A stretch of 36,642 nucleotides of DNA, from NCBI GenBank assembly GCA_016187225.1, contig JACPKC010000003.1:1-36642 (forward strand), given 5' to 3'. A program made the position numbers and the translations under genes. The notes beneath the pieces are model-generated. The model was not told the DNA's origin. It saw only the letters and a list, made by a program, of their open reading frames with translations, and made no database searches. Each line of letters opens with the position of its first letter. The stretch's first letter is position 1. Source of the DNA: Candidatus Berkelbacteria bacterium. Lineage in GTDB: Bacteria > Patescibacteriota > UBA1384 > JACPKC01. Positions 18,311 through 18,801 of this stretch are shown here, piece after piece.

Positions 18311-18367
18311 GAGCCGTTGGGAGTGCTCCGACTGCCTTATTGGTAGCCCACACTTTTCCTTTGGCTC
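18311..18367 (+). repeat. Dual-loop hairpin unit U1
   Basis: gagcc-gtt-ggga | gtgctccgac | tgcc-ttatt-ggta | gcccacactt | ttcc-ttt-ggctc. It has two G.T pairs if read on the plus strand. Confidence 0.6.
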
Positions 18368-18375
18368 AACTGATA

Positions 18376-18437
18376 TGGCGCAGATGAGACCTGATGAATT
18401 CACTTATGTGACCACAAGCCTTCTCTTTTCAGCGCCA
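18376..18437 (+). repeat. Dual-loop hairpin unit U2
   Basis: tggcgc-agat-gaga | cctgatgaat | tcac-ttat-gtga | ccacaagcct | tctc-ttttca-gcgcca. Confidence 0.65.
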
Positions 18438-18447
18438 GTGGCAATGC

Positions 18448-18508
18448 GTGCTCGAGGTAACGCCGTCGTACTTTTATGAAAGAATCAGACAATTACCTTT
18501 CCGAGCAC
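18448..18508 (+). repeat. Dual-loop hairpin unit U3
   Basis: gtgctcgaggtaa | cgccgtcgta | cttt-tatg-aaag | aatcagacaa | ttacct-ttc-cgagcac. The outer pairing is 13 bp with a 3-nt bulge. Confidence 0.7.
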
Positions 18509-18519
18509 GCAAACTTGGC

Positions 18520-18580
18520 GGGATCAGTTGAGACGGCAGGAATTGCCTTAAAGGCATCCACCCATTTCTCTTCTGATCCC
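18520..18580 (+). repeat. Dual-loop hairpin unit U4
   Basis: gggatcag-tt-gaga | cggcaggaat | tgcc-ttaaa-ggca | tccacccatt | tctc-tt-ctgatccc. Confidence 0.7.
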
Positions 18581-18593
18581 AAAACGATTTGAG

Positions 18594-18649
18594 GCAGGAA
18601 TGTGAGCGATGCCGTTCTCTTGAGAGAATTAATCCCTTCACTTTCCTGC
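18594..18649 (+). repeat. Dual-loop hairpin unit U5, a paralogue of U9
   Basis: gcaggaatgtga | gcgatgccgt | tctc-ttga-gaga | attaatccct | tcactttcctgc. Confidence 0.75.
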
Positions 18650-18670
18650 TCTCTCGATCCAAATGGAACG

Positions 18671-18730
18671 GCCATGGGGTGAGCGACCAAAATGCCTTTT
18701 GGCACCACTACTATTCACTTTTCCCACGGC
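18671..18730 (+). repeat. Dual-loop hairpin unit U6
   Basis: gccatggg-gtga | gcgaccaaaa | tgcc-tttt-ggca | ccactactat | tcac-tttt-cccacggc. The outer stem has one A.C mismatch. Confidence 0.6.
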
Positions 18731-18740
18731 CAAACCTTGA

Positions 18741-18801
18741 AGCAGGAGTAAAGATAAACCGATTTACCTTGAGGTAACACACTCTTTCTTTTACTCCTGC
18801 T
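18741..18801 (+). repeat. Dual-loop hairpin unit U7
   Basis: agcaggagtaaaga | taaaccgatt | tacc-ttga-ggta | acacactctt | tc-t-tttactcctgct, followed by aaTTTTTTT. Its outer stem covaries with those of U5 and U9 (gcaggaaTGTGA/TCACTttcctgc versus gcaggaGTAAA/TTTACtcctgc). Confidence 0.75.

What the first reader, a model, noticed from the sequence alone, without database searches (positions are those of the whole stretch)
18311..18801. Seven tandem units with constant geometry, covarying stems and hypervariable 10-nt segments
Read directly, the plus-strand paired segments A/B of each unit are:
- U1: gtgctccgac / gcccacactt
- U2: cctgatgaat / ccacaagcct
- U3: cgccgtcgta / aatcagacaa
- U4: cggcaggaat / tccacccatt
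- U5: gcgatgccgt / attaatccct
- U6: gcgaccaaaa / ccactactat
- U7: taaaccgatt / acacactctt

The central mini-hairpins all have a 4-bp stem and a 4-5 nt loop: tgcc-ttatt-ggta, tcac-ttat-gtga, cttt-tatg-aaag, tgcc-ttaaa-ggca, tctc-ttga-gaga, tgcc-tttt-ggca and tacc-ttga-ggta.

The outer stems have almost no sequence in common between units, yet each is self-complementary over 9-14 bp. Unlike CRISPR repeats, structure is conserved rather than sequence, so repeat finders would miss the array. One oddity is that segment A of U4 (ggcaggaat) equals the start of the outer stem of U5 and U9, so alternative folds or self-recognition are possible.
Basis: seen in the sequence. Interest (0 to 1): 0.9.

Follow-up and report, generated by a model that had tools for sequence, protein, structure and literature searches.

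The report
Stem-loop TIGR guide-RNA array beside TasR
The seven hairpin units are real and form a stem-loop TIGR guide-RNA array next to its TasR protein gene in a Saccharibacteria-like bacterium, which is an RNA-guided DNA-targeting system first described in 2025, so this is a new example of a known kind.

Summary
Positions 18311-18801 hold seven hairpin units. Each has an outer stem, a 10-nt segment, a 4-bp mini-hairpin, a second 10-nt segment, and the outer stem again. Two more units (16914-17036) lie on the other side of the adjacent gene.

Stems covary. Within-unit arm pairing is -19 kcal/mol against -9 for cross-unit pairing, and the fold z-score is about -8. Tandem Repeats Finder and Rfam find nothing.

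The adjacent 406-aa gene (17046-18266, minus strand) encodes a TasR-type protein:
- It passes NCBIfam "TIGR-Tas system RNA-guided endonuclease" (105 bits, cutoff 100).
- It fails the IS110 transposase models.
- Its predicted fold best matches the TIGR-TasR structure 9MTY.

All examined homologue loci, including a Candidatus Saccharibacteria MAG, carry similar arrays flanking the gene.

This is the stem-loop class of TIGR-Tas (Faure 2025; Xu 2026 preprint). The units are guide RNAs whose two short spacers pair with opposite DNA strands. The RuvC site lacks two of four acidic residues, so binding or repression is more likely than cleavage.

The transcribed strand is not settled; I put the gene's strand at about 70%. 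No targets were found. Verdict: a new member of a known kind.

The parts
18311..18367 (-). Unit U1 (nearest the tas start). Plus-strand segments gtgctccgac / gcccacactt; minus-strand guides aagtgtgggc / gtcggagcac.
   Evidence: It is the weakest unit on the minus strand: three G.U pairs on the plus strand become A.C mismatches on the minus strand. The strand assignment for all units is about 70% minus.
18376..18437 (-). Unit U2. Plus-strand segments cctgatgaat / ccacaagcct; inner hairpin tcac-ttat-gtga.
   Evidence: (I4)
18445..18511 (-). Unit U3. Plus-strand segments cgccgtcgta / aatcagacaa. The inner hairpin cttt-tatg-aaag is closed by C-G instead of U-A.
   Evidence: (I7)
18520..18580 (-). 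Unit U4. Plus-strand segments cggcaggaat / tccacccatt; inner hairpin tgcc-ttaaa-ggca.
   Evidence: (I2)
18591..18651 (-). Unit U5. Plus-strand segments gcgatgccgt / attaatccct. Paralogue of U9.
   Evidence: (I6)
18670..18731 (-). Unit U6. Plus-strand segments gcgaccaaaa / ccactactat; inner hairpin tgcc-tttt-ggca.
18741..18801 (-). Unit U7. Plus-strand segments taaaccgatt / acacactctt; inner hairpin tacc-ttga-ggta.
   Evidence: (I3)
16914..16969 (-). Unit U8, on the other side of tas. Plus-strand segments tcaatcatct / cgcgaaaaat.
16979..17036 (-). Unit U9, ending 10 nt from the tas stop codon. Plus-strand segments acgatgccat / ttcattcatt. Same scaffold as U5.
17046..18266 (-). tas gene: a 406-aa TasR-type protein with a RuvC-like N-terminal domain, a coiled coil and a Nop-like RNA-binding C-terminal domain.
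16835..16864 (-). Terminator-like hairpin (16843-16864) followed by T7 on the minus strand, downstream of tas-U9-U8.
   Evidence: Read. It was not called by the scan, which allows no mismatch.
18866..18893 (+). Intrinsic-terminator-like site on the plus strand: a 9-pair stem with two G.U pairs, then T8, starting 65 nt beyond U7.
   Evidence: Whether it belongs to the system is unresolved.

Best explanation
The region is the larger part of a stem-loop-type TIGR (tandem interspaced guide RNA) array. It has seven units upstream and two downstream of a tasR-type gene, on the chromosome of a Saccharibacteria-like (CPR/Patescibacteria) bacterium.

Shown here:
- The anatomy of the nine units.
- Stem covariation.
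- Conserved junction nucleotides around both segments of every unit.
- The identity of the neighbouring protein as a TIGR-Tas effector.
- The same gene-plus-array arrangement in all examined homologue loci.

Inferred from the published systems:
- The array is transcribed, most likely together with tas on the minus strand (about 70%).
- It is cut in the short linkers into hairpin tigRNAs of about 57-67 nt.
- Each hairpin holds two single-stranded guides of about 9-10 nt in one internal loop. The outer stem closes the loop on one side and the 4-bp mini-hairpin on the other.
- The two nearly identical junction motifs are the handles for the two Nop-like domains of a TasR dimer.
- The two guides pair with opposite strands of adjacent halves of an 18-20 bp DNA site. 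One strand of that site reads 5'-guideA + reverse complement of guideB-3'.

The RuvC motif positions read D10 / P68 / E123 / Q126, where TaTasR has D11 / E42 / D87 / D90. The complex therefore probably binds DNA and represses transcription rather than cutting, as reported for other CPR stem-loop TasR proteins.
For: Array anatomy and statistics.

Protein:
- NCBIfam NF052498 TIGR_Tas_endo scores 105.3 bits against a cutoff of 100 (E = 4e-30). IS110 models score 35.5 against 140 and 22.1 against 180.
- phmmer against PDB hits only 9MTY (TaTasR) at 1e-7. The family profile reaches 1e-13.
- hhalign to the TaTasR sequence gives 97% probability over the Nop domain.
- The AF2 model has pLDDT 79.6. Its best Foldseek hits are 9MTY TIGR-TasR (E = 5e-10, 381 columns), then IS621 and TasH. 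RuvC resolvases match the N-terminal domain.

Association: the nine closest proteins found by the word-index search (45-100% identity, one of them the window's own protein) and a 69%-identical Ca. Saccharibacteria MAG copy have hairpin units of the same geometry beside the gene, on both sides wherever both flanks are present on the contig.

Literature:
- Stem-loop arrays have two 8-12 nt spacers, variable palindromic stems and box C/D-like junctions (PMC12045711 section 9).
- The CPR TasR clade has 10-nt spacers of which 9 pair, a hairpin between the spacers, arrays upstream and downstream, an inactive RuvC and repressor activity (10.64898/2026.09.09.750476).

Host: LigA is 70% identical to a Ca. 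Saccharibacteria MAG and the other hits are Patescibacteria.

Segment turnover on a fixed scaffold: U5 against U9.
Against: - No expression or processing data exist for this locus.
- No DNA target was found. There is none in the window at up to 5 mismatches above shuffled expectation, and four exact 20-mers gave nothing in viral contigs.
- Strand signals in the window conflict. On the plus strand, U1 and U2 have G.U pairs, there is a good terminator at 18866-18893, and 3 of 7 linkers contain CTT.
- No sigma-70-like promoter was found on either strand in 16500-19100.
- The junction motif (GNNA / UNNC) only partly matches the published CCA / UG boxes.
- The RuvC residue mapping is a motif alignment by eye. 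Neither phmmer nor hhalign aligned the N-terminal domain.
Confidence: 0.88

Rival explanations
1. It is the same TIGR array, but transcribed from the plus strand, antisense to tas. The reader's segments would then be the guides as written, and the transcript would end at the plus-strand terminator at 18866-18893.
For: - The hairpin at 18866-18886 has two G.U pairs that exist only in plus-strand RNA, followed by T8. All 24 ORFs of at least 180 aa are on the minus strand, so the array is the only plus-strand candidate upstream of it.
- U1 and U2 stems have G.U pairs on the plus strand, and summed arm energies favour plus slightly (-172.9 against -166.7 kcal/mol).
- CTT occurs in 3 of 7 plus-strand linkers and 0 of 7 minus-strand linkers (read). 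Xu 2026 reports a CUU motif in linkers.
Against: - Unit orientation relative to tas is the same as in the relatives. On the tas strand all have purine-A before the proximal helix and a single base after it. The plus-strand hits of model R1 in three relatives agree.
- In the relatives, promoter-like and terminator-like sites bracket the arrays on the tas strand: L003, L006 and L007.
- G.U counts across relatives are 65 on the tas strand against 47 on the other.
- In the published loci FpTIGR and SpTIGR the listed array begins with the 3' end of the tas coding sequence, so array and gene share a strand. The TaTIGR and ParTIGR layouts are consistent with this (Table S1 of PMC12045711).
- Only 44 nt separate U1 from the tas ATG, so tas has no room for its own promoter. 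U9 and U8 lie between the tas stop codon and a minus-strand terminator-like site.
Confidence: 0.3
2. It is an IS110-family mobile element, and the hairpins are bridge-RNA-like guides for recombination.
For: - Pfam Transposase_20 hit (E = 3.6e-5).
- IS621 and ISCro4 recombinases are the second-best structural matches.
- Bridge RNAs also present paired guide segments in internal loops.
Against: - NCBIfam IS110 models score far below their cutoffs (35.5 against 140; 22.1 against 180), while the TIGR-Tas model passes.
- No DEDD_Tnp_IS110 domain was found.
- There are nine independent single-loop units with unrelated guides, not one two-loop RNA.
- There is one copy in the window, and no terminal repeats were seen.
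- Homologues sit in different housekeeping neighbourhoods, each with its own array.
Confidence: 0.03
3. It is a cluster of palindromic elements or terminators with no guide function, or a decayed array that is no longer used.
For: - No targets were found.
- No promoter was detected.
- U1 is imperfect on the tas strand.
Against: - The constant 10 + 11-13 + 10 nt internal geometry and the conserved junction nucleotides at 16-17 of 18 flanks are not expected of terminators or REP elements.
- The tas ORF is intact and conserved, with 75 invariant columns across 9 sequences.
- The same architecture is kept in relatives that are 45-69% identical.
Confidence: 0.05

Closest known systems
Stem-loop TIGR-Tas systems of CPR bacteria (CsTasR, PateTasR; Xu et al. 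2026 preprint; Faure et al. 2025, Fig. 7)
   Same: - Tandem hairpin units with variable palindromic outer stems.
- Two short spacers per unit. Here they are 10 nt with a semi-conserved end base, matching the 10-nt spacers of which 9 pair in CsTasR.
- A small hairpin between the spacers.
- Units both upstream and downstream of tas.
- A CPR host.
- A RuvC site that is incomplete.
   Different: - The protein belongs to a small separate subfamily: 5 representatives at E < 1e-130, then a gap to 1e-40.
- The first RuvC Asp (D10) is invariant here but absent in the nearest wider relatives. The beta4 Glu that those relatives keep is Pro here.
- The junction motif is GNNA / UNNC(UU), not CUU / UG.
- A CUU linker motif is not consistent on either strand.
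Dual-repeat TIGR-Tas (TaTasR, PDB 9MTY; Faure et al. 2025)
   Same: - The effector architecture is RuvC, coiled coil and Nop domain. 9MTY is the best sequence and structure match.
- Two spacers per unit, flanked by A on the 5' side and U on the 3' side.
   Different: - TaTasR arrays have two conserved 9-nt repeats and 36-nt tigRNAs. Here the edge repeats are replaced by unit-specific stems of roughly a dozen pairs.
- TaTasR has four acidic RuvC residues and cuts DNA. Here two of the four are not acidic.
IS110/IS621 bridge RNA recombinases
   Same: - Homologous RuvC and RNA-binding domains.
- Guide segments displayed in internal loops of extended helices.
   Different: - The bridge RNA is one RNA with two loops (target and donor) inside a mobile element. 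Here there are nine single-loop units in a chromosomal array.
- The IS110 family models are not met.
Box C/D snoRNP / archaeal sRNP guide RNAs
   Same: - Nop-domain protein dimer.
- A pseudo-symmetric RNA with two guides.
   Different: - No RUGAUGA / CUGA boxes or K-turns are visible in the units.
- No neighbouring gene scanned is fibrillarin-like or L7Ae-like.
- The published target of Tas proteins is DNA, not RNA.
CRISPR arrays
   Same: An array of variable guides beside its effector gene, processed into unit RNAs.
   Different: - There is no conserved repeat sequence.
- Guides are split in two and pair with both DNA strands.
- Repeat finders do not detect the array.

Membership tests
TIGR-Tas system | Effector with a Nop-like RNA-binding domain (Tas protein) | tested here: met
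   NCBIfam TIGR_Tas_endo scores 105.3 bits against a cutoff of 100. hhalign to TaTasR gives 97% probability over residues 193-381. The top Foldseek hit is 9MTY.
TIGR-Tas system | Array of tandem units next to tas, each with two short (8-12 nt) spacers | tested here: met
   There are nine units with two 10-nt segments each. One group starts 44 nt upstream of the tas start and the other ends 10 nt downstream of the stop.
TIGR-Tas system | Box C-like and box D-like nucleotides flanking both spacers, pseudo-symmetric within a unit | tested here: inconclusive
   Both segments of every unit have the same flanks: A before in 17 of 18 and U after in 17 of 18, inside 4-bp helices G-N-N-A / U-N-N-C. The published CCA / UG boxes appear literally only as UG...CA, in the four tgcc-type inner hairpins.
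Stem-loop class of TIGR arrays | Variable but palindromic sequences in place of edge repeats, supported by covariation | tested here: met
   Within-unit against cross-unit pairing is -19.2 against -8.9 kcal/mol. Five of 8 pairs show double-sided changes. Mean identity of the 5' arms is 40%.
TIGR-Tas system | Array transcribed and processed into unit tigRNAs bound by Tas | not testable with these tools
   Only consensus promoter and terminator scans were possible.
TIGR-Tas system | Tandem-spacer recognition of both strands of a DNA target | tested here: inconclusive
   The geometry was taken from TaTasR tigRNA1 and its target. No match was found in the window or for four 20-mers in viral contigs. 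By my estimate, sites of 18-20 bp are too short to give significant hits in large collections.
TasR subtype (RuvC-fused Tas) | N-terminal RuvC-like domain, plus a coiled coil for dimerisation | tested here: met
   The alignment to 9MTY covers the full length, and RuvC/MOC1 resolvases match the N-terminal domain. Long helices are predicted at 148-186 and 208-229.
Catalytically active TasR nuclease | Four conserved acidic RuvC residues (D11, E42, D87, D90 by motif in TaTasR) | tested here: not met
   By motif alignment with the TaTasR and ParTasR sequences and the family alignments, the positions read D10, P68, E123, Q126. The mapping is by eye and was not confirmed by an alignment program.
IS110-family RNA-guided transposase | Whole-protein match to curated IS110 models, and a DEDD domain | tested here: not met
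   NF033542 scores 35.5 against 140 and NF051857 scores 22.1 against 180. Only PF02371 was found, not PF01548.
Any Rfam RNA family | Covariance-model match | tested here: not met
   There is no gathering-level hit in the window. Around the array only chance-level hits appear, with E of 5 or more.

The most novel reading that the evidence does not exclude
The unit scaffolds are almost perfectly two-fold symmetric (G-N-N-A / U-N-N-C on either strand), and the window carries terminator-like sites for both directions. Both strands of the array may therefore be transcribed and loaded, so that each unit would yield two different tigRNAs, (A,B) and (rcB,rcA). These would recognise different DNA sites and double the guide repertoire.
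Probability: 0.08. Interest if true: 0.6.

Novelty: new member of a known kind. Interest (0 to 1): 0.35.

Why it matters
- It is a clean natural example of a stem-loop TIGR-Tas system on the chromosome of a CPR bacterium, and it was recognisable from raw sequence alone.
- It adds a small, distinct TasR subfamily with an unusual pattern of RuvC residues.
- It offers one piece of evidence on how such arrays evolve: a duplicated unit (U5/U9) whose scaffold stayed nearly identical while both guide segments diverged. How TIGR arrays gain new guides is not explained in the papers read here.
- It does not change the current picture of these systems.

Tried and rejected
- **Rfam.** Searches of the locus and of the whole window gave nothing.
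- **Self-targets.** A search of the window for both possible two-spacer geometries with up to 5 mismatches gave 10 hits against a shuffled mean of 4.5. Several hits overlap the array itself and none is convincing.
- **Viral targets.** Exact 20-mer targets for U3 and U4 in both geometries found nothing in viral contigs. I did not continue, because by my estimate 18-20 bp sites cannot give significant hits in collections of this size.
- **Strain variants.** A search for the U5/U9 scaffold with free segments in the metagenome and genome collections found no match. The protein-based metagenome scan also found none.
- **Second contig.** The only other contig with the identical protein (L012) is 100% identical DNA, so it gives no turnover information. 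L003 is identical to L004, and L007 is nearly identical to L008.
- **Covariance model.** Model R1, built from six window units, was too window-specific. It gave only three weak hits in relatives, all on the tas strand.
- **Strand from G.U counts.** Inconclusive in the window and a modest tas-strand excess in relatives (65 against 47). The A6 and T7 tracts flanking the array are symmetric and carry no strand information.
- **RuvC alignment.** Sequence alignment of the RuvC domain to solved structures or to TaTasR failed.
- **Published catalogue.** The relatives' contig names and family peptides were not found in the truncated supplementary tables of Faure 2025.
- **Rejected ideas.** CRISPR, a tRNA-like array (no tRNAs), box C/D sRNAs and IS110 bridge RNA.

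Full report
**What is there**

Positions 18311-18801 lie in a 748-nt gap between two minus-strand ORFs, 17046-18266 and 19015-20040. Read on the plus strand, the gap holds seven units. Each unit runs: outer stem, 10 nt, 4-bp mini-hairpin with a 3-5 nt loop, 10 nt, outer stem.

A motif scan found two further units of the same geometry, U8 and U9, at 16914-17036, directly beyond the stop codon of ORF 17046-18266.

**Is it more than chance?**

- Folding of 18290-18830 gives seven separate hairpins. The z-score is -8.2 on the plus strand and -8.5 on the minus strand against dinucleotide shuffles.
- The 5' and 3' arms of one unit pair at -19.2 kcal/mol on average. Arms from different units pair at -8.9 +/- 3.0 kcal/mol.
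- On the eight pairs that are in register next to the segments, 97.9% of cells pair and five pairs change on both sides. The covariation score is 0.60 against 0.18, reached by 0 of 500 shuffles. Sliding the partner column destroys the signal.
- Tandem Repeats Finder reports nothing. Rfam has no match.

The units are not sequence-free. Each of the 18 segments is preceded by G-N-N-A and followed by U-N-N-C-U-U on the plus strand, which reads A-A-G-N-N-A ... U-N-N-C on the minus strand. This holds at 16-17 of 18 positions. The same motif flanks both segments of a unit, so each unit is pseudo-two-fold symmetric. The plus-strand last base of a segment is T in 14 of 18 cases, which leaves about 9 freely variable bases.

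**The neighbouring gene**

ORF 17046-18266 (406 aa) has a weak Pfam Transposase_20 hit.

- NCBIfam places it in NF052498, "TIGR-Tas system RNA-guided endonuclease", at 105.3 bits against a cutoff of 100. The IS110 models are far below threshold.
- Its only sequence relative in the PDB is 9MTY, the TIGR-TasR complex. hhalign to the TaTasR sequence from Table S1 of Faure et al. gives 97% probability over the C-terminal Nop-like domain.
- An AlphaFold model (pLDDT 79.6) matches 9MTY best over its whole length (E = 5e-10). IS621 and ISCro4 recombinases and TasH come next, and RuvC-type resolvases match the N-terminal domain.

The architecture is therefore RuvC-like domain, coiled coil and Nop-like domain, which is TasR.

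**Relatives**

The word-index search found the protein itself plus eight close homologues at 45-61% identity. A genome scan found a 69%-identical copy in a Candidatus Saccharibacteria MAG. An exhaustive profile search found 2200 distant relatives, with a large score gap after five close representatives.

Every homologue locus I fetched has hairpin units of the same kind in the non-coding DNA beside the gene, on both sides wherever both flanks are present on the contig. The neighbouring genes differ from locus to locus.

The window itself is ordinary chromosome. It carries ligA, metG, dnaX and prc, with all 24 large ORFs on the minus strand. There is no GC anomaly at the locus. LigA is closest to Saccharibacteria and other Patescibacteria.

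**What it is**

This matches the stem-loop class of TIGR arrays. Faure et al. 2025 (PMC12045711, section 9) describe tandem stem-loops with two 8-12 nt spacers flanked by box C/D-like motifs, with variable palindromic sequences where dual-repeat arrays have edge repeats.

Xu et al. 2026 (bioRxiv 10.64898/2026.09.09.750476) catalogue 2,559 such arrays. They describe a CPR TasR clade with:
- 10-nt spacers of which 9 pair;
- a short hairpin between the spacers;
- units both upstream and downstream of tas;
- inactive RuvC domains;
- RNA-guided transcriptional repression.

They also note that these arrays lack the sequence conservation that annotation tools need.

**How it most likely works**

The anatomy is shown here. 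The steps below are inferred from the published systems.

1. The array is transcribed and cut in the 7-18 nt linkers into unit hairpins.
2. A TasR dimer holds the two junction helices.
3. The two guides pair with opposite strands of adjacent halves of an 18-20 bp site.

From the synthetic TaTasR tigRNA1 and its target (supplement of PMC12045711), one target strand reads 5'-spacer A + reverse complement of spacer B-3'.

**Nuclease status (inference)**

I aligned the motifs by eye with TaTasR (D11, IVAE42N, ND87END90) and ParTasR, using the family alignments. The window protein reads D10, P68, E123 and Q126.

D10 and P68 are invariant in the subfamily. The nearest wider relatives have the reverse pattern, with no Asp and Glu present. 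With two of four acidic positions lost, cleavage is unlikely. Binding or repression is the better guess. No alignment program confirmed this mapping.

**Strand**

This is the main open point.

For the minus (tas) strand:
- Unit orientation relative to tas is conserved between the window and its relatives. On the tas strand all have purine-A before the proximal helix, and a TCAAGNGTT-like linker is shared with L006.
- In the relatives, promoter-like and terminator-like sites bracket the arrays on the tas strand. L003 even has promoter, sub-array, terminator, promoter, sub-array, tas.
- G.U pairs across relatives favour the tas strand, 65 to 47.
- In the published loci FpTIGR and SpTIGR the listed array begins with the 3' end of the tas coding sequence, so array and gene share a strand. 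The TaTIGR and ParTIGR layouts are consistent with this.
- In the window only 44 nt separate U1 from the tas ATG, so tas must be transcribed through the array.
- U9 and U8 lie between the tas stop codon and a minus-strand terminator-like site at 16835-16864.

For the plus strand:
- G.U pairs in U1 and U2.
- A good terminator at 18866-18893 whose two G.U pairs exist only in plus-strand RNA.
- CTT in 3 of 7 linkers.

I put the minus strand at about 70%.

**Segment turnover**

No close strain variant was available. The only other contig with this protein is identical DNA, and pattern scans for the U5 scaffold found nothing.

Within the genome, U5 and U9 are duplicates. They differ at 1 of 39 scaffold positions and at 7 of 20 segment positions (p = 0.0014).

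The GGCAGGAAT identity between a U4 segment and the U5/U9 stem is real. It does not extend to a full two-guide site and is near chance level.

**Targets**

None were found in the window or in four viral-contig scans.

**Verdict**

The feature is a new member of a known kind, the stem-loop TIGR-Tas systems, not a new class.

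Noticed in passing
window 16914-17036: Two further units (U8, U9) lie on the far side of the tas gene. U9 is a duplicate of U5: the scaffold is nearly identical (1 of 39 positions differ) but the segments differ at 7 of 20 positions.
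   Followed up: yes
window 18866-18893 (+): A strong plus-strand intrinsic-terminator-like site (9-pair stem whose two G.U pairs exist only on the plus strand, then T8), in a window whose 24 large ORFs are all on the minus strand. The array is the only plus-strand candidate upstream of it.
   Followed up: partly
window 16835-16903: A 13-bp hairpin without an internal loop (16870-16903), followed by a minus-strand terminator-like hairpin (16843-16864) and T7. Both lie downstream of U8, in front of the next gene's start at 16703.
   Followed up: partly
window 18305-18310 and 18804-18810; 17039-17046: The upstream array is flanked by A6 on one side and T7 on the other, and U9 is followed by AAATTTTT. 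Each sub-array therefore looks the same from either strand and gives no strand information.
   Followed up: yes
window 7409, 16979, 18535, 18593: GGCAGGAAT occurs four times against 0.27 expected. Three of the four are in the TIGR locus: the U9 stem, a U4 segment and the U5 stem.
   Followed up: partly
L012 (identical strain, sample SRR12113420), start = window 18618: That contig ends inside U5. This fits an assembly break at the duplicated U5/U9 sequence.
   Followed up: no
L003 2311-3414: A relative has two upstream sub-arrays on the tas strand, each preceded by a TG-extended promoter-like site. A strong terminator-like hairpin at 2985-3006 separates them.
   Followed up: partly
window segments (all 18): On the plus strand the segments are G-poor (C 58, A 53, T 43, G 26), and 14 of 18 end in T. 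The last position behaves as part of the scaffold motif rather than as guide.
   Followed up: partly
window 26560-28077 (-): In this 505-aa ORF only the C-terminal ~190 residues resemble sigma-70/SigH-type factors (about 50 bits, below cutoffs). The roughly 290-residue N-terminal extension is unexplained.
   Followed up: no
window 17046-18266 and family alignment A1: The subfamily keeps the first RuvC Asp (D10, PADIEP) but has Pro at the beta4 Glu position. The nearest wider relatives show the opposite pattern. These are two different ways of having an incomplete active site.
   Followed up: partly
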